64,000 nt of DNA from Gemmatimonadota bacterium (GTDB lineage: Bacteria > JAAXHH01): positions 33,111-97,110 of the forward strand of contig VXWP01000117.1 of the NCBI GenBank assembly GCA_009835325.1, read 5' to 3'. Each line of letters starts with the position of its first letter. The stretch's first letter is position 1. The position numbers and the translations under genes are program-made. This document shows positions 1,116 through 17,050 of this stretch, piece by piece. Below the pieces are notes generated by a model. The model was not told the origin of the DNA, made no database searches, and worked only from the letters and a program-made list of their open reading frames with translations.

Positions 1116-1910
1116 ATGATGCTGGAATGCCAGATACAGGCCATGCGGACGGACGGCTGGTGCGTCCTGGACAACATTATCCCCGAAGACAGGCTGGCCG
1201 AGACACGCGACCGGGTCATCGCCTCCACCAACCGCCACCGGAATCCCGACGCACCCGCGAACATCGGCCACGTGAGTGGTTTCCTCAAGTACGACCAGTC
1301 GCTGGCGCCCTGGCTCGCGGACCGGCGGTTACTCGACCTGGCCGGCGCGCTGCTCGGACGCCATTTCCGCATCTCCTTCACCACGGCTACGATCAACGAG
1401 CCCGGAAACGACCGCGGAGGCTGGCACGCGGACTGGCCCTTCAACCAGCGGAACGCGGGACATGTGCCCGCTCCGTACCCGGACGCGGTCATGCACCTCA
1501 CGACCATCTGGATGCTCTCCTCATTCACCGGCGAGAACGGAGGCACACTCATCGTCCCGGGCAGCCACCGCAGCGACAACAACCCCACCGGCAACAACGG
1601 GATACCTCCCGACGAACCCCATCCGAGCGAACTGAACGTGACCGGCGAGGCGGGAAGCGTCCTCGTCATGGACAGCCGGCTCTGGCATTCCACGGCCGCC
1701 AACTCCTCCCGGGATCCGCGCGTGGCCGTCGTCGTCCGCTACGCGCCCTGGTGGCTGAACCTGAACGTGCTGCGGCCCGGTTCGGAAGACCGCCGGATCC
1801 TGGTGGACGAGACCGGCGGAACGGAAAACCTGGTCCCCACCCTCCCCAGGGACGTCTTCGACAGCCTGCCCGGCGAGCTGAAACCTCTCGTATCTCACTG
1901 GGTGGGGTAG
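1116..1910 (+). CDS. phytanoyl-CoA dioxygenase (PhyH) family Fe(II)/2OG oxygenase
   Basis: 264 aa with an HxD...H-type iron-binding pattern (WHADWPF ... LWHS). Resembles PhyH-family hydroxylases. Confidence 0.6.
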   Translation: MMLECQIQAMRTDGWCVLDNIIPEDRLAETRDRVIASTNRHRNPDAPANIGHVSGFLKYDQSLAPWLADRRLLDLAGALLGRHFRISFTTATINEPGNDRGGWHADWPFNQRNAGHVPAPYPDAVMHLTTIWMLSSFTGENGGTLIVPGSHRSDNNPTGNNGIPPDEPHPSELNVTGEAGSVLVMDSRLWHSTAANSSRDPRVAVVVRYAPWWLNLNVLRPGSEDRRILVDETGGTENLVPTLPRDVFDSLPGELKPLVSHWVG

Positions 1911-1915
1911 GACGT

Positions 1916-1954
1916 CCGTATACCTCAGCCGTATACCTCAGCCGTGTACCTCAG
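1916..1954. repeat. 13-bp tandem repeat x3 (ccgtatacctcag / ccgtgtacctcag) just after the PhyH stop
   Basis: Read directly: ccgtatacctcag ccgtatacctcag ccgtgtacctcag. Confidence 0.8.
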
Positions 1955-2060
1955 CAAGACATTCCCTGGGTCCCTGTAACATTATACCTCTCGCATTAGT
2001 CTAATGTTTAAGAATCGCAGCAAACCATTTCGATTCTAAACATCTCGATTGGAGGAGGTT

Positions 2061-3035
2061 ATGAGCCGGACTGGAGTTGTCGCGGTATTATGTGCGTGCG
2101 TTTGGATTTCAAGCGCGTGCAACACCCGGGAGTTCGGATTCGAGCGCGACGGGCAGATGAACGGTATTAAGCGTGATGGGCAGGACTATACCGAGACCTT
2201 TCGGCAGAATTACGAGGTCAACCCCGGGGGTACACTGACGGTCGATGCCGAATTGGGGGCAATTCACATTAAAAGCTCAATCCTAAATGAAGTAGATGTC
2301 CTGGTGAGAAAGCGATATCGGGCAACCGATGCAGGCCAGATTCGAAAAGCATTCAGTAATGTCGAAGTCGGAATTGAACAGACGGATAACGATGTACGAA
2401 TCGATGTCGACCGAATCGACGACAACGCAGAGAATTGGTTTTGGCAGGAAAAAACCCGCGTGGAAATCGAAGTAACGGTTCCCGTGGAATTCAATCTGGA
2501 CCTCAGTACGATTAGTGACAGTATCGAGACTGGAAACATCAAAGGAGACGTGACGGCCGAAACGCTTTCCGGGATCGTTTCGACCGGTCCAACCGAAGGT
2601 AATTTGAGCATAGAAACGACCAGCGGGCATATCAGAGCCGGTCGCGTAGTAGGCAGGGTACATACCAAAACACTGAGTGGGAGCATCGAAATTGGACCGG
2701 TGAATGGTAACGCGACACTCTCTTCAACCTCTGGCAGAATCGAAACAGATATCGTAAAGGGAGATCTGAACGCCGAATCCTTAAGTGGGCACATCAAGAT
2801 CGGACCCGTGAATCGTGACGCGACGCTCTCTTCCACCTCAGGCAGAATTGAATCTGATACCGTTAAGGGAGATCTGAACGCTGAGACCTTAAGTGGTAAC
2901 ATCAGGATTGGACCTGTGAATGGTGACGCGACGGTCTCTTCGACCTCGGGGAATATAAAAACTGGCCATGTGGGGGGAAAATTGGAAACCTCGACCCTCA
3001 GCGGCAAAATCGAAAGTAGTTTCCATACACGGTAA
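2061..3035 (+). CDS. secreted DUF4097-like beta-solenoid repeat protein (putative adhesin family), paralog A
   Basis: GGAGGAGG SD 2 nt upstream of ATG 2061 (the track ORF starts at an upstream TTG). Signal peptide present. ~20-aa repeats (SGxIxIGPVNGxATLSSTSGRIE) typical of DUF4097/YvlB-LiaG-like proteins. Markedly lower GC than its neighbours. Confidence 0.8.
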   Translation: MSRTGVVAVLCACVWISSACNTREFGFERDGQMNGIKRDGQDYTETFRQNYEVNPGGTLTVDAELGAIHIKSSILNEVDVLVRKRYRATDAGQIRKAFSNVEVGIEQTDNDVRIDVDRIDDNAENWFWQEKTRVEIEVTVPVEFNLDLSTISDSIETGNIKGDVTAETLSGIVSTGPTEGNLSIETTSGHIRAGRVVGRVHTKTLSGSIEIGPVNGNATLSSTSGRIETDIVKGDLNAESLSGHIKIGPVNRDATLSSTSGRIESDTVKGDLNAETLSGNIRIGPVNGDATVSSTSGNIKTGHVGGKLETSTLSGKIESSFHTR

Positions 3036-3162
3036 CGCCGTGCCCGGCACGGTCGAAGGAAACCTCCAGCGGCGACGCAACTATTTCATCATTGCCGGAG
3101 TCTTAGTCGCAGAACCGAAAGCTCGATGAACTTTAACCTAACCACACCAGGAATAGGGTCCC

Positions 3163-3936
3163 ATGAATGCGTTTTGGAAACTGTCGGTCGCTTGCGTATG
3201 TATAGTGGTGAATTTGAATGCAGCCGCGCAGGATACACAGGAAACCGAGATGATGCGAACTAACCAGGGATTCGTGGAGAGCATCACGGCGGCGTACACC
3301 GTCGATCCCGGCGGCGAGCTGATTATCGATGCCGACTTCGGATCGGTTCGGATCGAGACCGCGACCACCGACAAGGTGGAAATCCTCGTGGAAAAGCAGC
3401 GGAAGGAAGGCACTGAAGACGAGGCCCGCCGCGCCTTCGAAGATGTGGAGGTAACCACGGAACAGCGGGGCAACGACGTGCACGTCCGTGTCGACCATTC
3501 GCGATGGTTGGGACGCAACGGCATGTCCATCGAGATGAAGGTCCAGGTGCCATATACCTACAATCTGGATATCGAGACTGCAGGAGGCAGCATAATAATC
3601 GCGGACCTGGACGGCGAGATCGGGGCGAAGACGGCGGGCGGAAGCATCCGGATCGGCGCCACGCAGGGGGACGTGAACGCCCGGACCCTGGGTGGAAGCA
3701 TCCGCATCGGCCCGACCGAAGGGGGCGTGTCCGCGAAGACCCTGGGCGGCAGTATAGATATAGGTGACGCTAAGGGTGACGTGTCTGCCCAGACGATGGG
3801 CGGGAGCATCCGCGTCGGACGCACCGAAGGTGACCTGACCGCCTACACCATGGGCGGAAACATCACCGTGGAATCCGCTACGGGCAAAGTGTCGGCCAAG
3901 ACCCTGGGCGGCAAAGTCAGGGTCGGTTCCACGTAA
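3163..3936 (+). CDS. secreted DUF4097-like beta-solenoid repeat protein, paralog B
   Basis: Signal peptide present. The N-terminal domain is homologous to paralogs A and C (YxVDPGGxLxIDADFGSIRIE). Repeated TxGGSIRIG units. Confidence 0.8.
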   Translation: MNAFWKLSVACVCIVVNLNAAAQDTQETEMMRTNQGFVESITAAYTVDPGGELIIDADFGSVRIETATTDKVEILVEKQRKEGTEDEARRAFEDVEVTTEQRGNDVHVRVDHSRWLGRNGMSIEMKVQVPYTYNLDIETAGGSIIIADLDGEIGAKTAGGSIRIGATQGDVNARTLGGSIRIGPTEGGVSAKTLGGSIDIGDAKGDVSAQTMGGSIRVGRTEGDLTAYTMGGNITVESATGKVSAKTLGGKVRVGST

Positions 3937-3986
3937 CAAGCCGCTGTCAACGGCAATACCGTTTGTTTTGACAATTGGGAGGAATG

Positions 3987-5321
3987 ATGCGTCTATTATT
4001 AAACCTGGTTGGTGTCGGTCTGCTCGTTGCCTCGGCATACGCATGCAGCGCACAGGAGGTCACGTTTATGCGCGACGGTATGGGTCACGTAGAAAGAACC
4101 CACCAGAAATACGCGGTGGATGGGGCCGGCACGTTGACCGTAGAGACCGACTTCGGATCGATCCGTGTCGAAAGCTGGTCCAACGACGAAGTGGACGTCG
4201 AGGTGGAAAAACGTCGGACGGGTATCAGCGAAGCCAGCGCCCGCGACGCCTTCGATGAAGTATCGGTGGATATTTCCCAACGGGAGAACGACGTCGACAT
4301 CCGGATAGAGCGCGATCGGAAATACGGGAACGAAGGAATATCGGTGGATGTACAGGTCAAGGTGCCGGAAACGTACAGCCTGGACCTCAAGACCTCGGGC
4401 GGCGACATCGATGTCGGAGACCTGCGGGGTGACGTGCTTGCCCGCACCTCGGGCGGCGATATCAACGTTGGCAACGTTACGGACGCCGTGATCCGGGTTC
4501 ACACGTCAGGTGGAGATGTGACCGTAAAGGGAGGTGCAAGGGAGACGAAGGTGTCCACCTCCGGCGGGGATATCGAGATTCGTGACGCACGGGGCGCGGT
4601 GGATGCGACCACCTCGGGCGGTGACGTCACGATCGGCGACGCGGCCGGCGAAGTGTCGGCCAAGACCTCGGGCGGCGACATCAAGATCGGCCGTACGGAC
4701 GGTGAAGTGACGGTGAGAACTTCCGGTGGCGATATCAAAATAGATCAAGCCGGGGGAAACACCGATGCGACTACCTCGGGCGGAGACATCAGGATAGGCC
4801 ATACCACGGGAGAAGTGAAAGCGAAGACTTCCGGCGGCGACATCACGATCGAGCGAGCCGATGGCGAGGTGGACGTGCATACCTCGGGTGGCGACGTCAC
4901 CATCGACAGCGCCGAAGGAAGATTGAAGGCGGGCACCTCGGGCGGCGATATCTCGATCGGCAATGCGACGGGCGGGGGCGTGACGGCGAAGACCTCGGGC
5001 GGCGACATCGAAGCCGGTTTAACGGCGACGGTAAGCGCGCTGGAGGAAGACTGGCTGTTGCAATCGTCCGGTGGGGAGTTGACCATCCGCATTCCCGAGG
5101 ATCTTCAAGCCTCGCTCGAAGCGGAGATCCAGATCGGTAGTTCCTGGTTCGGACGTGACAAGGAATATCGTATCGATTCGGATTTCAACCTGGACGAGCA
5201 GGACGATGGCGGTCGTAACGGTAAAACCGTAAGGGCCACCGGCGATATCAATGGCGGCGGACATCTCATCAGGCTCAAGACAAGCGATGGCGATATAAGG
5301 ATTCAGAAAGTGTCGTCCTGA
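3987..5321 (+). CDS. secreted DUF4097-like beta-solenoid repeat protein, paralog C (expanded repeat array)
   Basis: GGGAGG lies 5 nt before ATG 3987. Signal peptide present. About 15 consecutive TSGGDIxIG(x)A units, followed by a C-terminal domain. Confidence 0.8.
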   Translation: MRLLLNLVGVGLLVASAYACSAQEVTFMRDGMGHVERTHQKYAVDGAGTLTVETDFGSIRVESWSNDEVDVEVEKRRTGISEASARDAFDEVSVDISQRENDVDIRIERDRKYGNEGISVDVQVKVPETYSLDLKTSGGDIDVGDLRGDVLARTSGGDINVGNVTDAVIRVHTSGGDVTVKGGARETKVSTSGGDIEIRDARGAVDATTSGGDVTIGDAAGEVSAKTSGGDIKIGRTDGEVTVRTSGGDIKIDQAGGNTDATTSGGDIRIGHTTGEVKAKTSGGDITIERADGEVDVHTSGGDVTIDSAEGRLKAGTSGGDISIGNATGGGVTAKTSGGDIEAGLTATVSALEEDWLLQSSGGELTIRIPEDLQASLEAEIQIGSSWFGRDKEYRIDSDFNLDEQDDGGRNGKTVRATGDINGGGHLIRLKTSDGDIRIQKVSS

Positions 5322-5366
5322 GCCCTTGACGGGTGCGGACCTGACTTCTCGGTTCAGGCCGCGCCA

Positions 5367-6326
5367 TCAGGCCGCGCCCAGATACCCCGCGAGTTGCTCG
5401 GGCATGATGTTCCCGCCGCTGAGCAGCGCCACGACCTTTTTGCCCTCCAGAGATACGATGCCGTTCAGCAGGGCGGCGACGCCGACCGCGCCTCCCGGCT
5501 CGACTACAAGTTTCGTCGTCCCGATCAGGTACTTCACCGCGTCGATCGCCTGTTCATCCGATACCAGGACCATCTCGTCCACGTAGGCCATTACGTGCTC
5601 GAAGGTAAGGTCCCCGGGGCGGGGCGCCACGAGTGAATCGCATACCGTGTCCGGTTCCGGCACCTCGCAGATCTCCTTCTTCATAAAAGACCGGTAAACC
5701 GCCTGCGACCCTTCGGGTTGTACCCCGATCACCTTCACCGCGGGGTTCAACGTTTTCACGGCCGTGGCAACGCCGCCGATCAGGCCCCCGCTGCTCACGG
5801 GGACGATCACGGCGTCAAGATCCGAAGCCTGTTCCATGATCTCGGCGCCGATGCTGCCATGGCCCCGAACGACGTTCGCGTCTTCCCAGGTGTTGATCGC
5901 GGTGATGCCCCGTTCCCTGCCCAGCCGGTCCAGCGTGTCCCACCTTGCCTGGTTGCGGTTTTCGCACAGCACCGCTTCGGCGCCGTAGTCCATCGTGCGC
6001 CGCACCTTGTAGGACGAGGTCTTTTCCATCATCACGATCGCCGTCGGAATCCCGAGCAGCGTGCCCATGTAGGCGAACGCCGTCGCGAAATTACCGGAGG
6101 ATGAGATCGCGGCGCCCTTCCTCTTCTGGTCCGCGGTAAGGCGGTTCAGGATGGTATAGGCCGCGCGCGTCTTGTAAGACCCCGTCACCTGCAGGTTTTC
6201 CGCCTTCATCCAGACGTCCGCGCCGGTCTGATCGGAAATCGTACCTGAATGCAGGACGGGCGTATATACGACCTCCGGCGGAAGTTCCTTTCTCGCCTGT
6301 TCGATTTCTTCCAGGTTGATCAGCAT
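5367..6326 (-). CDS. PLP-dependent threonine/serine dehydratase (catabolic-type, no regulatory domain)
   Basis: PLP-lysine motif TGSYKTRA and glycine-rich SSGNFATAFAYMG. The start was moved to internal ATG 6326 (MLINLEEIEQ), which has a GGAAGGG upstream. 319 aa. Confidence 0.8.
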   Translation of the reverse strand: MLINLEEIEQARKELPPEVVYTPVLHSGTISDQTGADVWMKAENLQVTGSYKTRAAYTILNRLTADQKRKGAAISSSGNFATAFAYMGTLLGIPTAIVMMEKTSSYKVRRTMDYGAEAVLCENRNQARWDTLDRLGRERGITAINTWEDANVVRGHGSIGAEIMEQASDLDAVIVPVSSGGLIGGVATAVKTLNPAVKVIGVQPEGSQAVYRSFMKKEICEVPEPDTVCDSLVAPRPGDLTFEHVMAYVDEMVLVSDEQAIDAVKYLIGTTKLVVEPGGAVGVAALLNGIVSLEGKKVVALLSGGNIMPEQLAGYLGAA

Positions 6327-12774: not shown

Positions 12775-14604
12775 TCACGCGAGCCCCAGTTCCATCAGTT
12801 TTTCCCTGGTGGGCTGTCCGTCCGCCGTCCAGCCCCGGGCCGCGTAGTAGTCCGGCAGCATGGCGTCGAGATCGACGGTCACCCCCGCCGAAGGCCCTTC
12901 CTTGTGGGCTTCTTCCATCAGTCTTTTCGGCAACGTGTCATCGGCCGCGGTGAGACCGGCCTTCAGGTTCCACAGCCGTTCGATGTTCCAGATCCGTTCG
13001 CCGATATGCACGAAGTCGTCCATGGTGTATTCCACGCCGGTGGCCGCGGACAGCACGGGGATCAGGTCGTCCAGGGGCGCGCCCGCCGTGGTGAACATGC
13101 AGATGCCCGTGGCGTCATGTGCCGTGGTCCGGTTCTGCTCCTCGGCCACCCAGACCGACTTCCCGTCGGTACCGTGGGGATCGTACTCGCCGCTGGTTTC
13201 GATGCCGGGCGTCCAGGCCCTCAGGTGACAGGCACCGCGGTTGCAGGTGGCATAGGCCACGCCCATGCCCTGGAATCCCCGGGGATCATAGGCCGGGAAC
13301 TCCTGCCCCTTGACGCCCATGAAGTACTCCGGATGCTCGAACTTGTCGGTCATCCGCTTGGAGCCTTCGGCCAGTTCGTCGCCGAAGCCTTCCCGGAATC
13401 CCGTGGCTTCCGTCATGGCGACCAGGGCCTTGCCGTCTCCGAACCGTAGCGCCATGCCCGTCTGCTCATCGCTCAGCAGGCCCCGCTCGTACATTTCCAT
13501 GGCCGTGGCCAGCGTGGCGCCCATGGAAATGGGGTCCATGCCCAGGTCGTTGCACAGGTAGTTGGCCATGACGATGGCGTCCATGTCGTCCACGCCGCAG
13601 TCGGCCCCCAGCGACCAGAGGTTTTCGTACTCCGGTCCCTCGCCGGCGACCTTCCAGTTGCGGGGATGCATGTTGACCATGTACTTGTCGGCGTTGGGGG
13701 ACACCTGGGTCACGCGGCCGCAGGCGATGTTGCAGGCGAAGCAGGCCTTGTTGGCGATCAGCCAGTTATCCTTGATGCTCTCCCCGTTGATCGCCTCGGT
13801 GCCTTCGAACTGGCCGGCCGTGAAATTGCGCGTCGGCAGGCCGCCGAAGGTGTTGACCAGGTCGACCGTGGGCGCCGTGCCCAATTCCGTAAGTCCCTGC
13901 CGACCGGGACTCTCCGCCAGATGTTCGTGGTAGGACCAGATGGCGGACATGTAATCCCGGGGCCGTGCGACCCGCACGCCCTGGTTGCCCCGGACGGCGA
14001 TCGCCTTCAGGTTCTTGGAACCCATGACGGCACCGACGCCGGAACGGCCGGCCGCCCGGTGCTTGTCGTTGACGATGCACGCGAACCGCACCAGGTTCTC
14101 GCCTGCCGGTCCGATGCCGGCCACCCGTAACTCGGGCATGCCGGTCTCTTCTCGGATGGCGTCCTCGGTCTCCGAGACCACCTTGCCCCACACGCCGGCG
14201 GCGTCGCGGATCTCGACGCGGTCATCGTCGACGAGGAGGTAGCACGGACGGTCCGCACGGCCTTCCACGATCACCATGTCGTAGCCGGCGAACTTGAGCT
14301 CCGGGCCCCAGTGTCCGCCCGAATTGGACGTGGTGATTGCGCCGGTGAGCGGTCCCTTGGTGACCACCATGTAGCGGGCGCCGCAGGAGGCGTTGGTGCC
14401 CGTAAGCGGTCCGGTGGCCATGATCAGCTTGTTGTCGGGACCGAGGGCGTCGACCGAGGGATCCATCTCCTCGTAGAGGTACCGGGCGGCCAGTCCGCGG
14501 CCGCCGATGTATTCCTCGGCCCAGTCCAGTCTCAGGGGCTCTTTGGTCGCCTTGCCCCGCGACAGGTCCACCCGCAGGATATGGCCGGCCCACCCGTGTG
14601 TCAT
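12775..14604 (-). CDS. tungsten-containing aldehyde:ferredoxin oxidoreductase catalytic subunit (AOR family), copy 2
   Basis: 609 aa, full-length AOR family (N-terminal MTHGWAGHILRVDL..., conserved AOR domains). About 70% identical in the N-terminal region to the upstream copy. Confidence 0.9.
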   Translation of the reverse strand: MTHGWAGHILRVDLSRGKATKEPLRLDWAEEYIGGRGLAARYLYEEMDPSVDALGPDNKLIMATGPLTGTNASCGARYMVVTKGPLTGAITTSNSGGHWGPELKFAGYDMVIVEGRADRPCYLLVDDDRVEIRDAAGVWGKVVSETEDAIREETGMPELRVAGIGPAGENLVRFACIVNDKHRAAGRSGVGAVMGSKNLKAIAVRGNQGVRVARPRDYMSAIWSYHEHLAESPGRQGLTELGTAPTVDLVNTFGGLPTRNFTAGQFEGTEAINGESIKDNWLIANKACFACNIACGRVTQVSPNADKYMVNMHPRNWKVAGEGPEYENLWSLGADCGVDDMDAIVMANYLCNDLGMDPISMGATLATAMEMYERGLLSDEQTGMALRFGDGKALVAMTEATGFREGFGDELAEGSKRMTDKFEHPEYFMGVKGQEFPAYDPRGFQGMGVAYATCNRGACHLRAWTPGIETSGEYDPHGTDGKSVWVAEEQNRTTAHDATGICMFTTAGAPLDDLIPVLSAATGVEYTMDDFVHIGERIWNIERLWNLKAGLTAADDTLPKRLMEEAHKEGPSAGVTVDLDAMLPDYYAARGWTADGQPTREKLMELGLA

Positions 14605-14714
14605 GAAGAAACTCCATTCCTCGGCTCAGGCCGGGTGATGCGGGGCCGCGCCCCGGTCACCTGACCCGGGAGCACGCCCTGCGGATCACCCTGGTTCAAA
14701 AGCCGGATCGGGCG

Positions 14715-16562
14715 CTACGCCAGTCCCAGCGACGCCAGTTTCTCCTGAGTGGGTTCGCCTTCCGCGTTCCAGCCGCGGATTTCGTAGTATTCCGGCAGCA
14801 TCTCGCCGAGTCGGTTCACTTCGCCCTTGGTCGGCCCGTCGGGGATCGGCTCTTCGAGCAGCCGCTTCGGCAGCGTGTCGTCCTTGCCCGTGAAGCCCGC
14901 CCGCTGGTTCCACATGCGCTCGATGTTCCAGACGCGCTCCCCGACCTCAAGCAGTTCGGGCACCGTGTAGGAGATGCCGGTCACCGCCTCGAGCTGGGGC
15001 TGTATCTCATCCAGGCCCACGCCGAAGGTGAGGAACAGGCAGAGGCCCGACGCGTCCACCGTGCAAGTGGCGTCCTGGAAGATCTTGGTGATCTCCGCCT
15101 TGCCTTCCGTCACGGCCGGATCCATCTTCTCCGGGATCCCCAGGATCTCGGGGGCGACCGTGTAGCTCTTCAGGTGGCAGGCGCCCCGGTTCGAGGTCGC
15201 GTAGCCCAGGCCCATGCCCTGGATCGCCCGGGCGTCGTAGGCCGGGAATTCCTGGCCGCGCACGCCCATGAAGAACTCGGGCCGGTTGAACTTGGCGGTC
15301 ATGCGCTTGGAGCCCTCGGCCAGTTCATCGCCGAAGCCTTCGCGGTAGGCCGCCTTTTCCGTCATGGCGACGAGCGCATCACCGCTCCCGAAGTTCAGCG
15401 GCATGCCGGTCTGCTCATCGCTCACGGCGCCGCTTTCGTACAGCTCCATGGCCGCGGCCAGCGTCGCCCCGAAGGAGATCGGGTCCATGCCCAGTTCGTT
15501 GCACATGGCGTTCGCCTTGATGAGCGCGTCCAGGTCGTTGATGCCGCAGTCGGCGCCCATGGCCCAGGCGTTCTCGTACTCCGGTCCTTCCACCGCGATC
15601 TTCCAGTTGTGGGGCCGGGTGGTCACGGTGAACTTGTCCTGCGCCTCGCCCGGCAGCTGAGACACCCTGCCGCAGGCGATCGTGCAGCCGAAGCAGGCCT
15701 TGTTGGCCACCAGCCGCGTATCGGCCAGGGTCTCCCCGCTGATGTTGTCCGCGCCTTCGAGCTGCGAGACCTGGTGGTTGTTCGTCGGCAGTGCGCCGCT
15801 CTCGTTGATGATGTTGACCAGCACCGCGGTGCCGTATGCGGCCAGACCCTCACCCGTTACCGGATGCTCGACCAGCTTGCTCTTCATCTCCCACATGGCC
15901 GACATGAACTTCTGCGGGTCGGCGATGGGCACGCCCCCGGTACCGCGTACGGCAATGGCTTTGAGGTTCTTTGAACCCATGACCGCGCCGACGCCGGATC
16001 GTCCGGCGGCCCGGTGCCGGTCATTGACTATGGCGGCGAAACGCACGAGGTTCTCGCCCGCCGGACCAATACAGGTAACGACTGTATCGTGCTGCCCCGA
16101 CTCCTCCCGGACGATATCATCCGTCTCCCAAACCGTCTTGCCCCACAGGTGCTCGGCGGAGCAGATCCGGACATCGTTGTCGCAGATGGAGATGTAGGAC
16201 GGAACCGGCGCCCGGCCTTCCACGATCAGCATGTCGTACCCGGCGAACTTCAGTTCCGGTCCCCAGTGGCCGCCCGAGTTGGACGTGGTGATGGCGTTGG
16301 TCAGCGCCCCCTTGGTGACCACCATGTAGCGTGAACTCGTCGAGGCGTTCGTGCCGGTCATGGGACCGGTCGCGAAAATCATCTTGTTGTCCGGGCCCAG
16401 CGCGTCCGCCGCCGGGTCCATTTCTTCATAGAGGTACCTGGCCGCGAGGCCGCGCCCGCCCACGAAGGACTTGGCCCAGTCCATGTTGAGGGGCTCTTTG
16501 GAGATCCGACCGGTGGTCAGATCGATGCGCAGGATCGTGCCTGTCCATCCGCCGTTGCTCAT
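14715..16562 (-). CDS. tungsten-containing aldehyde:ferredoxin oxidoreductase catalytic subunit (AOR family), copy 1
   Basis: True start is the internal ATG at 16562 (MSNGGWTGTILRIDL). The 726-aa track ORF is read-through. The start overlaps the ferredoxin stop as ATGA. Confidence 0.9.
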   Translation of the reverse strand: MSNGGWTGTILRIDLTTGRISKEPLNMDWAKSFVGGRGLAARYLYEEMDPAADALGPDNKMIFATGPMTGTNASTSSRYMVVTKGALTNAITTSNSGGHWGPELKFAGYDMLIVEGRAPVPSYISICDNDVRICSAEHLWGKTVWETDDIVREESGQHDTVVTCIGPAGENLVRFAAIVNDRHRAAGRSGVGAVMGSKNLKAIAVRGTGGVPIADPQKFMSAMWEMKSKLVEHPVTGEGLAAYGTAVLVNIINESGALPTNNHQVSQLEGADNISGETLADTRLVANKACFGCTIACGRVSQLPGEAQDKFTVTTRPHNWKIAVEGPEYENAWAMGADCGINDLDALIKANAMCNELGMDPISFGATLAAAMELYESGAVSDEQTGMPLNFGSGDALVAMTEKAAYREGFGDELAEGSKRMTAKFNRPEFFMGVRGQEFPAYDARAIQGMGLGYATSNRGACHLKSYTVAPEILGIPEKMDPAVTEGKAEITKIFQDATCTVDASGLCLFLTFGVGLDEIQPQLEAVTGISYTVPELLEVGERVWNIERMWNQRAGFTGKDDTLPKRLLEEPIPDGPTKGEVNRLGEMLPEYYEIRGWNAEGEPTQEKLASLGLA

Positions 16563-17050
16563 GCCGCGTTCCCTCCCTCGATGGATGTCAGGTAGGACTC
16601 GTTTACCTTCTCGGCCCATCCGCCCAGCCAGTCGGCCGACTCGCTCTCGGTGTATTCGATGGCGCCTGTCGGGCAGGCGACCGCGCAGGCCGGATTGCCG
16701 TCGCACAGATCGCACTTGAAGGCCTTCTGCGTGTCGGGATTGTAGAACACCGTGCCGAAGGGACAGGCGATGGTGCACAACCCGCAACCTACGCAGTTGG
16801 CATCGCCCACGACCTTGGCGCCGGTATCCGCGTCGATGCTGATGGCGTTCACGGGGCAAGCCGTCATGCACCAGGCTTCGTCGCACTGGAAACACGTGTA
16901 CGGCGCGTAACTGGCCTGCTCATCGAAAATGTTCACGCGGATCAGCGACCGGGATGGTTGAAACATGCCGGTCTGCACCCAGGAACATGCCAGTTCGCAC
17001 TGCATGCACCCGGTGCATTTTTCAGGGATTATGCGTAGAGATTTAGCCAT
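16559..17050 (-). CDS. ferredoxin-like electron-transfer subunit with four [4Fe-4S]-binding Cys motifs (AorA-like)
   Basis: Four CxxCxx(xx)CxxxC(P) motifs. The start was moved to ATG 17050 (MAKSLRIIPEKCTGC), which has AAGGGAG 6 nt upstream. Confidence 0.85.
   Translation of the reverse strand: MAKSLRIIPEKCTGCMQCELACSWVQTGMFQPSRSLIRVNIFDEQASYAPYTCFQCDEAWCMTACPVNAISIDADTGAKVVGDANCVGCGLCTIACPFGTVFYNPDTQKAFKCDLCDGNPACAVACPTGAIEYTESESADWLGGWAEKVNESYLTSIEGGNAA

What the first reader, a model, noticed from the sequence alone, without database searches (positions are those of the whole stretch)
2061..5321. Tandem triplet of secreted DUF4097-like beta-solenoid proteins with near-identical internal DNA repeats
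Three consecutive co-oriented genes encode paralogous signal-peptide proteins. Each has a conserved N-terminal domain followed by arrays of ~20-aa beta-solenoid rungs (TSGGDIxIG... / SGxIxIGPVNG...). Within genes A and C the rung units repeat at the DNA level with about 60/120-bp periodicity and very high identity (for example 2757-2880 versus 2877-2990, and throughout 4380-5000). This suggests recent unit expansion and potential for slipped-strand or recombinational length variation of a surface or envelope protein. Copy number goes from roughly 6 to 15 rungs across the three paralogs. The GC-driven antisense ORFs in the track here are artefacts of the repeats.
Basis: partly seen in the sequence, partly recalled or inferred. 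Interest (0 to 1): 0.6.

Follow-up and report, generated by a model that had tools for sequence, protein, structure and literature searches.

The report
Three exported Toastrack (DUF4097) beta-helix paralogs
Three neighbouring genes of a sponge-associated bacterium encode exported rod-shaped repeat proteins of the known DUF4097 "Toastrack" family; the number of repeats changes between related bacteria, but the repeats in this genome are old, so the finding is real and fairly ordinary.

Summary
The three co-oriented genes are real: A 2061-3035 (324 aa), B 3163-3936 (257 aa) and C 3984-5321 (445 aa). Each has an N-terminal signal sequence, a roughly 100-aa beta-rich cap and an array of 18-aa rungs (about 10, 7 and 14). 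C passes Pfam PF13349. A and B miss Pfam but match C by BLASTP (2e-38, 1e-60). AlphaFold models of A and C significantly match only solved Toastrack "putative adhesin" structures, plus one Legionella Dot/Icm chain.

The DNA claim is overstated. The period is 54/108 nt, not 60/120. Unit identity is at most 85% in A and 74% in B and C. The longest exact repeat is 23 nt.

The idea of length variation holds across the clade. The PhyH-to-PALP slot holds 2-5 paralogs in related sponge-symbiont MAGs. C orthologs differ by whole rungs, A orthologs by double rungs (six to fifteen rungs). One relative carries the same A array at 99% identity. Sequences at least 90% identical to the window's alleles show no length change.

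NCBI already names these proteins DUF4097. No Psp/Lia partner lies nearby. The likely role, an envelope scaffold or adhesin, is inferred. This is a new member of a known kind, of low to moderate interest.

The parts
1992..2060 (+). Conserved upstream region of gene A. It includes the element CGCATTAGTCTAATGTTTAAGAATCGCAG (1992-2020) and the Shine-Dalgarno GGAGGAGG (2051-2058), which ends 2 nt before the ATG.
   Evidence: The region is alignable by eye in all A-bearing relatives. It is retained as a remnant in L009, where A is absent. The consensus promoter scan found nothing above shuffles, so a promoter role is inferred only.
2061..3035 (+). Gene A, 324 aa, a capless Toastrack paralog of a lineage-specific subfamily. 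Signal or lipoprotein-like peptide aa 1-20 (2061-2120). N-terminal cap to aa 145 (to 2495). Ten 18-aa rungs (2496-3032). No C-terminal cap.
   Evidence: ORF. Start at 2061 is supported by the SD and by the 324-aa orthologs P0121 and P0270; the NCBI call in the source assembly starts at 2157. BLASTP to C 2e-38. NCBIfam LiaG 56.5 bits, below threshold. AF2 pLDDT 85.6 and Foldseek hits to 3PET, 3LYC, 4QRK and 4OPW. dN/dS 0.24-0.46. GC3 0.54.
2676..2947 (+). 108-nt (double-rung, 36-aa) tandem array inside gene A: 2.5 copies at 83% matches.
   Evidence: TRF. Unit pairs A5/A7 85%, A6/A8 83%, A4/A6/A8 74-83%. The same array is 99% identical in L019, 91% in L010, and has 4.4 copies at 87% in L015.
3163..3936 (+). 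Gene B, 257 aa, a capless Toastrack paralog. Signal peptide aa 1-22 (AAA|QD). N-terminal cap to about aa 136. Seven rungs (3571-3933).
   Evidence: ORF. BLASTP to C 1e-60. LiaG NCBIfam 5.9e-05. B is 257 aa in most related loci, with 254-275-aa calls in the more distant ones; identity to the window's B is 55-96% across the loci. dN/dS 0.11-0.37. NCBI names the 228-aa call MXW06444.1 'DUF4097 domain-containing protein'.
3984..5321 (+). Gene C, 445 aa, a full-length Toastrack protein. Signal or lipoprotein-like peptide aa 1-23. N-terminal cap to aa 134 (to 4385). Twelve TSGGD[IV] rungs (4386-5030). C-terminal cap with two degenerate rungs (5031-5318).
   Evidence: PF13349 1.8e-22, 80.4 bits against cut-off 22.9. 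AF2 pLDDT 90.7, pTM 0.86. Foldseek hits to 4QRK, 3PET and 4OPW. Orthologs at 83-94% identity are 444/445 aa; 426, 408 and 390 aa at lower identity. NCBI MXW06445.1 'DUF4097 domain-containing protein'.
4386..5030 (+). 54-nt rung array of gene C (units 46-74% identical). It contains the longest exact repeats in the region: 20-23 nt of AAGACCTCGGGCGGCGACATC at 4388/4661/4989, and a second at 4444/4933.
   Evidence: Ortholog indels fall between TSGGD motifs in the middle of this array.

Best explanation
The region holds three old paralogs (30-41% aa identity) of the Toastrack / DUF4097 family. Each is made with an N-terminal export signal; A and C have a lipobox-like Cys, and B has a signal-peptidase-I type site. 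Each folds into an N-terminal intertwined beta cap followed by a single-stranded beta-helix of 18-residue rungs. C also has a C-terminal cap; A and B end on a bare rung.

The genes sit in a conserved slot between a PhyH-family dioxygenase gene and a convergent PALP gene. The genome belongs to a sponge-associated MAG clade labelled Gemmatimonadetes or Ca. Latescibacterota. In relatives this slot holds 2-5 such paralogs (types A, B, C, D, E, and an A::E fusion).

Rung arrays change length by unequal recombination or replication slippage between rungs. The change is in whole rungs in C and in double rungs in A. This is a clade-scale process: in this window the arrays are diverged, under purifying selection, and stable among close relatives.

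Shown: gene structure, family and fold membership, export-type N-termini, paralog-cluster dynamics, and quantised rung indels.

Inferred: the proteins are rigid rods in the periplasm or tethered to a membrane (about 4.8 A per rung by the general geometry of beta-helices), whose two flat sheets serve as protein-binding scaffolds or adhesin-like surfaces in the cell envelope. Rung number would set rod length and binding area. The binding partner is unknown.
For: Gene structure and family:
- ORFs and paralogy.
- Pfam PF13349 for C; sub-threshold LiaG/LiaX/LiaF_C matches for all three.
- AF2 models with pLDDT 90.7 and 85.6 showing regular two-strand rungs.
- In Foldseek, significant PDB hits are limited to the Toastrack structures 3PET, 4QRK, 3LYC, 4OPW, 3JX8, 3LJY and 4YGU, plus one Legionella Dot/Icm chain. 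There is a clean gap to the next hits (E 2e-3, then 0.03 for C and 0.2 for A). 4QRK and 4OPW are the reference Toastrack structures in PMC11237479.

Export:
- Hydrophobic N-termini and lipobox pattern.
- N-terminal peptides conserved in orthologs.
- Low pLDDT for residues 1-20 or 1-31.

Source and synteny:
-.

Rung indels:
- C alignment with 18-, 36- and 54-aa gaps.
- A-type rung counts of 6 (L012; L006/L002 fusion) and 8/10/12 capless, and 11/13/15 capped.
- P0146/P0152 at 97.9% identity with one 36-aa indel; P0123/P0126/P0135 in 36-aa steps.
- Variants are present in complete long chromosomes OZ220749, OZ241838 and OX638340.
- Arrays at 99%, 91% and 87% identity in relatives, against 83% here.

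Selection and stability:
- Purifying selection, dN/dS 0.11-0.46.
- No length variants within the 90% clusters.
Against: - Function is not shown. There are no catalytic motifs, no partner gene, and no expression data.
- Export is judged from simple sequence rules only; no SignalP or LipoP was available. The Cys of C is not invariant (P0002 and P0034 lack it).
- Ravi et al. argue that Toastrack domains are typically intracellular. LiaG, however, is described as extracellular, and the solved structures were deposited as 'putative adhesin'.
- Pfam does not detect A or B directly.
- Foldseek TM-scores are low (0.15-0.67) because rung numbers differ, and handedness was not checked.
- Most relatives are MAGs, so some length variants could be assembly errors.
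- Clustering at 90% identity may exclude length variants by coverage.
Confidence: 0.75

Rival explanations
1. One reading: a contingency locus. Near-identical tandem DNA units let slipped-strand mispairing or RecA recombination change rung number quickly within a population, giving length-variable surface proteins.
For: - Whole-unit indels separate orthologs, one pair at 97.9% identity.
- One relative has a 108-nt x 2.5 array at 99% identity.
- Exact repeats of 20-23 nt exist in C.
Against: - The window's units are only 46-85% identical, and the longest exact repeat of 23 nt is not unusual for this window.
- The units in A are as close to orthologous units in other genomes as to each other.
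- All full-length members of the 90% clusters of A, B and C keep the same length.
- C is 444/445 aa in all orthologs from 83% to 94% identity, and B is 257 aa in most related loci.
- The units are in frame, so there is no on/off switching.
Confidence: 0.1
2. Envelope-stress signalling module of the Psp/Lia type. The Toastrack proteins would act like LiaG, YvlB or LiaX: sensing membrane or cell-wall damage, and recruiting PspA-like effectors or controlling a two-component system.
For: - The best NCBIfam matches are LiaG, LiaX and LiaF_C.
- The literature links Toastrack to PspC, LiaF and two-component systems.
Against: - All NCBIfam scores are far below cut-off: 22-68 bits against 285 for LiaG, and 32 against 350 for LiaX.
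- No PspA, PspC, LiaI/LiaF-TM, histidine kinase, response regulator, PadR or HAAS gene lies within about 10 kb on either side, in the window or in the syntenic loci.
- There is no transmembrane anchor domain or SHOCT fusion.
- The paralogs are signal-peptide proteins in a predicted diderm.
Confidence: 0.15
3. Symbiosis-related surface adhesins or variable surface coat. The fast-evolving, lineage-specific A type in particular would mediate contact with the sponge host, matrix or phages, and would be under diversifying pressure.
For: - The clade comes from sponge metagenomes.
- A-type homologs are confined to this clade: E drops from 1e-84 to 1e-35.
- A varies from 6 to 15 rungs, is lost in L009, L011 and L016, and is fused in L002/L006.
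- A has 4-9 times higher dN than B or C in the same genome pair.
- The solved homologs were deposited as 'putative adhesin'.
Against: - dN/dS stays below 0.5, so there is no gene-wide signal of positive selection.
- The higher dS of A may simply reflect weak codon bias (GC3 0.54).
- The 'adhesin' labels are structural-genomics guesses.
- Outer-surface exposure is untested.
Confidence: 0.25
4. The rung-number differences among relatives are assembly artefacts of repeats in short-read MAGs.
For: - Many relatives are short-read MAGs.
- L008 carries a run of N inside gene A.
Against: - Different A lengths (485, 326 and 522 aa) occur in complete single-contig chromosomes of 3.8-4.0 Mb.
- Indels are always exact multiples of 18 or 36 aa with the reading frame intact.
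- Repeat identity is too low to collapse at usual k-mer sizes.
Confidence: 0.03

Closest known systems
Toastrack domain family (Pfam PF13349 DUF4097, unified with DUF2154 and DUF2807 by Ravi et al. 2024, PMC11237479). Solved examples: 4QRK, 4OPW, 3PET, 3LJY, 3LYC, 3JX8, 4YGU.
   Same: - C matches the Pfam model above its cut-off.
- The predicted fold is the same: an N-terminal intertwined beta region plus a single-stranded beta-helix.
- NCBI already names these proteins 'DUF4097 domain-containing protein'.
   Different: - A and B escape the Pfam model.
- A belongs to a clade-restricted subfamily with alternating rung types and a 36-aa unit.
- A and B lack the C-terminal cap.
- The arrays are longer (up to 14-15 rungs) than in the 170-250-aa crystal constructs.
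LiaG, YvlB and LiaX of Firmicutes (envelope-stress Toastrack proteins)
   Same: The Toastrack domain is homologous, and these are the best NCBIfam matches. The LiaG domain is described as extracellular, and the LiaX C-terminal beta domain regulates LiaFSR.
   Different: - Scores are far below the equivalog cut-offs.
- There is no N-terminal TM anchor or alpha-helical sensing domain.
- No lia, psp or yvl operon partners lie nearby.
- The host is a diderm sponge symbiont.
Neighbouring Toastrack-type lipoprotein paralogs of Parabacteroides distasonis (3LYC = YP_001304412.1, 3LJY = YP_001304413.1, 3JX8 = YP_001304415.1)
   Same: Several paralogs of the same fold come from one genome. The near-consecutive accession numbers suggest adjacent genes, that is, a tandem paralog cluster like this one. 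This adjacency is inferred from accession numbers and was not checked.
   Different: - The phylum is different.
- The proteins are short (about 240 aa).
- No rung-number variation is documented.
- Sequence identity to A and C is only 12-16%.
Repeat-number-variable beta-solenoid and tandem-repeat surface proteins in general (for example ice-nucleation proteins and the Alp/Rib family; from general knowledge)
   Same: The repeat units are in frame and are gained or lost as whole structural units. Some relatives carry nearly identical units.
   Different: In this window the units are diverged (at most 85%). Variation is seen between species-level lineages, not shown within a population.

Membership tests
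Toastrack / DUF4097 (PF13349) | Sequence match to the family profile above the curated cut-off | tested here: met
   C scores 80.4 bits against a cut-off of 22.9, E 1.8e-22. A and B have no Pfam hit themselves. They are homologous to C by BLASTP (2e-38, 1e-60), and longer A-type orthologs carry precomputed PF13349 hits.
Toastrack / DUF4097 (PF13349) | Single-stranded beta-helix of short rungs forming two extended sheets | tested here: met
   AF2 models of C (pLDDT 90.7) and A (85.6) show regular strand pairs every 18 residues. Foldseek probability is about 1.0 to 4QRK, 3PET, 4OPW, 3LYC and 3JX8. Right-handedness was not examined.
Toastrack / DUF4097 (PF13349) | Distinct N-terminal multi-stranded region intertwined with the helix (seven strands in PMC11237479) | tested here: inconclusive
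   The models show 8 strands and one helix before the first rung in C (residues 25-128), and a similar layout in A. The topology was not compared strand by strand.
Psp/Lia-associated Toastrack systems (LiaG, LiaF, YvlB, LiaX, VraT) | Equivalog-level sequence match | tested here: not met
   LiaG NF049997 scores 56.5, 22.4 and 67.6 bits against a cut-off of 285. LiaX NF038025 scores 32 against 350. LiaF_C scores 20.9 against 57.
Psp/Lia-associated Toastrack systems (LiaG, LiaF, YvlB, LiaX, VraT) | Fusion to, or operon with, PspC, LiaI-LiaF-TM, PspA, a two-component system, or HAAS/PadR | tested here: not met
   Called genes within about 10 kb are BshC, PIG-L, GT4, rhodanese, DUF6785, epimerase, PhyH, PALP, Peripla_BP_2, DUF5916, an OMP beta-barrel, Pyr_redox_2 and AFOR x2. 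The same holds in three syntenic loci. The rest of the window was not scanned with Pfam.
Contingency locus / repeat-mediated length-variable surface protein | Tandem units of very high DNA identity (roughly 95% or more) | tested here: not met
   TRF gives 83% for A, 73% for B and 74-79% for C. The best unit pair is 85%, and the longest exact repeat is 23 nt. The feature is met in a relative (L019, 99%).
Contingency locus / repeat-mediated length-variable surface protein | Copy-number polymorphism within a strain or population | not testable with these tools
   No reads are available. As a proxy, members of the 90% clusters of A, B and C all keep the same rung number. The closest variant pair found is at 97.9% identity, in another A lineage.
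Bacterial lipoprotein | Lipobox [LVI][ASTVI][GAS]C after a signal-peptide h-region | tested here: inconclusive
   A (WISSA-C20) and C (SAYA-C21) fit the permissive PROSITE pattern but not the classical L at position -3. ISSAC is conserved in most A orthologs. The Cys of C is missing in P0002 and P0034. B has no lipobox.

The most novel reading that the evidence does not exclude
The A-type gene is a sponge-symbiont-specific Toastrack subfamily. Its rod length would be tuned in quantised two-rung (36-aa, roughly 1 nm) steps, from 6 to 15 rungs. The arrays would be kept homogeneous by gene conversion in some lineages (99% identity) and left to decay in others (83% here). Together with gain, loss and fusion of the paralogs in the PhyH-PALP slot, this would form a rapidly diversifying envelope or surface 'length-variable rod' system involved in host, matrix or phage interactions. 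The capless A and B might stack on other Toastrack units.
Probability: 0.2. Interest if true: 0.45.

Novelty: new member of a known kind. Interest (0 to 1): 0.25.

Why it matters
The Toastrack/DUF4097 family is very large: 6,567 homologs of C at E <= 1e-5 among the 8,000 candidates scored. Even so, it has no defined biochemical function. This locus adds three things.

- It is a clear example of signal-peptide-bearing, apparently stand-alone Toastrack proteins with no Psp/Lia partner. That qualifies the published view that the domain is mainly intracellular.
- It is a natural series of rung-number variants (6-15 rungs, in steps of one or two rungs). Such a series could be used to study how beta-helix length evolves and what it does.
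- It corrects two truncated gene calls in the public assembly.

It does not reveal a new kind of system.

Tried and rejected
- A single-sequence phmmer search of C against PDB sequences gave only chance-level hits (gamma-tubulin complex, E 0.08). Fold search was needed instead.
- Pfam on A and B gave only sub-threshold noise (DUF5357, Bactofilin).
- The sigma-70 promoter and intrinsic-terminator scan of 1800-5500 found no more sites than shuffles (2 vs 1.9, and 2 vs 3.2). Operon structure is therefore unresolved. A weak hairpin at 3949-3963 between B and C was not pursued.
- tblastn of A, B and C against the whole window found no further paralogs outside 2000-5400.
- A literature search for the Legionella Dot/Icm chain hit failed on term syntax and was dropped.
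- I considered horizontal acquisition as the cause of A's low GC. I did not adopt it, because low GC (0.46-0.53) is shared by A orthologs in all relatives at the same syntenic position. It remains unexplained.
- I considered A to be a decaying pseudogene and rejected this: dN/dS is 0.24-0.46, the frame is intact, and the model is confident.


Full report
**What is there**

The + strand carries three ORFs at the stated place: A 2061-3035 (324 aa), B 3163-3936 (257 aa) and C 3984-5321 (445 aa).
- A is preceded by GGAGGAGG, ending 2 nt before its ATG.
- The exact C protein is encoded on NCBI contig VXOL01000013.1 of assembly GCA_009840045.1, a 373-kb MAG contig.
- That assembly calls A and B from internal ATGs (window 2157 and 3250). 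This removes their hydrophobic N-termini.
- The longer starts are supported three ways: the conserved SD, orthologs called at 324 and 257 aa, and conservation of the N-terminal peptides.

**Checking the repeats**

The rung is 18 aa / 54 nt. Gene A has two alternating rung types, which gives a 36-aa / 108-nt super-unit.
- Rung counts are about 10 (A), 7 (B), and 12 canonical plus two degenerate rungs inside a C-terminal cap (C).
- The periodic signal is far above chance. Identity at the repeat offset is 60-85%, against 29 +/- 7% (maximum 52%) for random positions elsewhere in the window.
- The DNA units are not near-identical. TRF reports 83% matches for A (2676-2947), 73% for B and 74-79% for C.
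- The best unit pairs are A5/A7 at 85% and A6/A8 at 83%. No pair in B or C exceeds 74%.
- The longest exact direct repeat is 23 nt, which is unremarkable for this window.

**Family and fold**

C matches Pfam PF13349 (Toastrack DUF4097) at 80.4 bits against a cut-off of 22.9.
- A and B have no Pfam hit, but they are clear paralogs of C (BLASTP 2e-38 and 1e-60; 30% and 41% identity) and of each other (8e-47).
- All three give sub-threshold NCBIfam LiaG matches.
- AlphaFold2 with alignments gave confident models: C with pLDDT 90.7 and pTM 0.86, A with 85.6 and 0.79. Both show a beta-rich N-terminal region with one helix, then strand pairs every 18 residues.
- For both models, the significant Foldseek hits in the PDB are exactly the structural-genomics 'putative adhesin' structures: 3PET, 4QRK, 3LYC, 4OPW, 3JX8, 3LJY and 4YGU. 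One Legionella Dot/Icm chain also appears. A gap follows to non-significant hits.
- 4QRK and 4OPW are the reference structures of the Toastrack domain as defined by Ravi et al. (PMC11237479).
- NCBI already names C, B and an A-cluster member 'DUF4097 domain-containing protein'.

**Export**

Each protein begins with a strongly hydrophobic 12-mer (Kyte-Doolittle mean 2.6-2.7), and has none later in the sequence.
- A (WISSAC) and C (SAYAC) fit the PROSITE lipobox pattern; B reads AAA|QD.
- The AF2 models give these N-termini low confidence.
- No dedicated signal-peptide predictor was available, so export is a well-founded inference rather than a result.

**Context and relatives**

The genes lie between a PhyH-family gene and a convergent PALP gene. 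No PspA, PspC, LiaF-TM, kinase or regulator gene lies within about 10 kb.
- A genome scan found the same slot in 13 species-level genomes. All are sponge-associated MAGs labelled Gemmatimonadetes or Ca. Latescibacterota, and more came from metagenomes.
- The slot is dynamic:
  - A-B-C in the window, L003, L007, L008, L010 and L015.
  - B-C only in L009, L011 and L016.
  - A-D-B-C in L012 and L013.
  - A-D-E-B in L017, with the C region cut off by the contig end.
  - An A::E fusion of 651 aa in L002 and L006.
- B is 257 aa in most of these loci (254-275-aa calls in the more distant ones).
- C orthologs are 444/445 aa at 83-94% identity. They are 426, 408 or 390 aa at lower identity, with clean 18-, 36- and 54-aa gaps between TSGGD motifs.
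- A is the most variable paralog: 36 ortholog clusters of 253-522 aa. Rung numbers move in steps of two: capless forms with 6 (L012 and the L006/L002 fusion), 8, 10 or 12 rungs, and forms that retain a C-type C-terminal cap with 11, 13 or 15.
- P0146 and P0152 are 97.9% identical apart from one 36-aa indel. P0135, P0126 and P0123 form a 450/486/522 series.
- Length variants occur in complete 3.8-4.0-Mb chromosomes, so they are not assembly artefacts.

**Age of the arrays**

The same 108-nt x 2.5 array of A is 99% self-identical in L019, 91% in L010 and 83% in the window. L015 has 4.4 copies at 87%.
- In the window, A's units are as similar to orthologous units in other genomes (83-89%) as to each other (83-85%).
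- All full-length members of the 90%-identity clusters of the window's A, B and C keep the same length.
- Expansion, contraction and probably gene conversion therefore operate in the clade, but the window's alleles are old and stable.

**Selection**

Nei-Gojobori estimates against several relatives give dN/dS of 0.24-0.46 for A, 0.11-0.37 for B and 0.14-0.24 for C, so all three are functional genes.
- A evolves faster in both dN and dS. Against L003, its dS is 0.65, compared with 0.13-0.20 for PhyH, B and C.
- A has GC3 of 0.54 against 0.68-0.86 for its neighbours. This property is shared by all A orthologs (GC 0.46-0.53). It is unexplained.

**Mechanism**

Shown: these are exported-type Toastrack beta-helices in a paralog cluster whose rung arrays change by whole structural units.

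Inferred: they are rigid envelope rods whose two flat sheets bind other proteins. Ravi et al. propose this general role for Toastrack, although mostly for intracellular versions. LiaG's domain is described as extracellular, and LiaX's beta domain as a regulator of LiaFSR.

With no Psp/Lia partner nearby and scores far below the equivalog cut-offs, I do not file these as LiaG, YvlB or LiaX. An adhesin or host-interaction role, especially for A, is the main alternative.

**Verdict**

This is a new member of a known and already annotated family. The comparative pattern of quantised rung gain and loss is tidy but not surprising. Interest is low to moderate.

Noticed in passing
window 1916-1955: A 13-nt tandem repeat, CCGTATACCTCAG x 3.1 (96% matches), lies just after the PhyH stop codon and upstream of gene A. 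Copy number differs in relatives: 3 here, 2 in L003 and about 1 in L006.
   Followed up: partly
window 1992-2020 and 2051-2058: A strongly conserved non-coding element (CGCATTAGTCTAATGTTTAAGAATCGCAG) and the SD lie upstream of A in all A-bearing relatives. A remnant survives in L009, where gene A is absent. It may be a promoter or operator, but the sigma-70 scan did not flag it.
   Followed up: partly
window 2061-3035: Gene A has atypical composition: GC 0.51 and GC3 0.54, against GC3 of 0.68-0.86 in neighbouring genes. The low GC is conserved in all orthologs (0.46-0.53). Its dS is 3-5 times that of flanking genes in the same genome pair. The cause is unknown.
   Followed up: partly
window 2061-2156 and 3163-3249: The public assembly's gene calls for A (292 aa, start 2157) and B (228 aa, start 3250) begin at internal ATGs and drop the signal peptides. 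The conserved SD and full-length orthologs support the longer forms.
   Followed up: yes
L002 8001-9956 and L006 3005-4960: In two relatives, a six-rung A has lost its stop codon and is fused in frame to an E-type Toastrack paralog lacking its own signal peptide, giving a 651-aa protein. L002 also has fragmented D- and E-like ORFs downstream that look like pseudogenes.
   Followed up: partly
L007 3584-5041 and L015 3950-5518: Long A orthologs (485 and 522 aa) keep a C-terminal cap homologous to that of C. The window's A, ending in ...HTR*, therefore looks like a truncated derivative of a capped ancestor.
   Followed up: partly
window 5354-5378: A 13-nt repeat, TCAGGCCGCGCCA x 1.9, lies in the 45-nt gap between the convergent C and PALP genes and overlaps the PALP 3' end.
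   Followed up: no
models of A and C (window 2061-3035 and 3984-5321): Both models also match chain AM of the Legionella Dot/Icm type IV secretion system reconstruction (7muc; probability 0.98-0.99, E about 2e-3). This suggests a Toastrack-like fold in a periplasmic machine component. The identity of that chain was not checked.
   Followed up: no
window 12775-16895 (- strand); L001 1-3226: Two adjacent aldehyde:ferredoxin oxidoreductase (AFOR) genes lie downstream. A bacillithiol-synthesis-like trio (BshC, PIG-L deacetylase, GT4) lies just upstream of the window start in the source contig.
   Followed up: no
P0121 vs window 2061-3035: The 99%-identical A ortholog differs at two residues, both inside the repeated rungs (D to E in IETDIV, S to T in NAESLSG). 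The second change makes the rung match the next repeat copy (NAETLSG), which hints at gene conversion between units.
   Followed up: no
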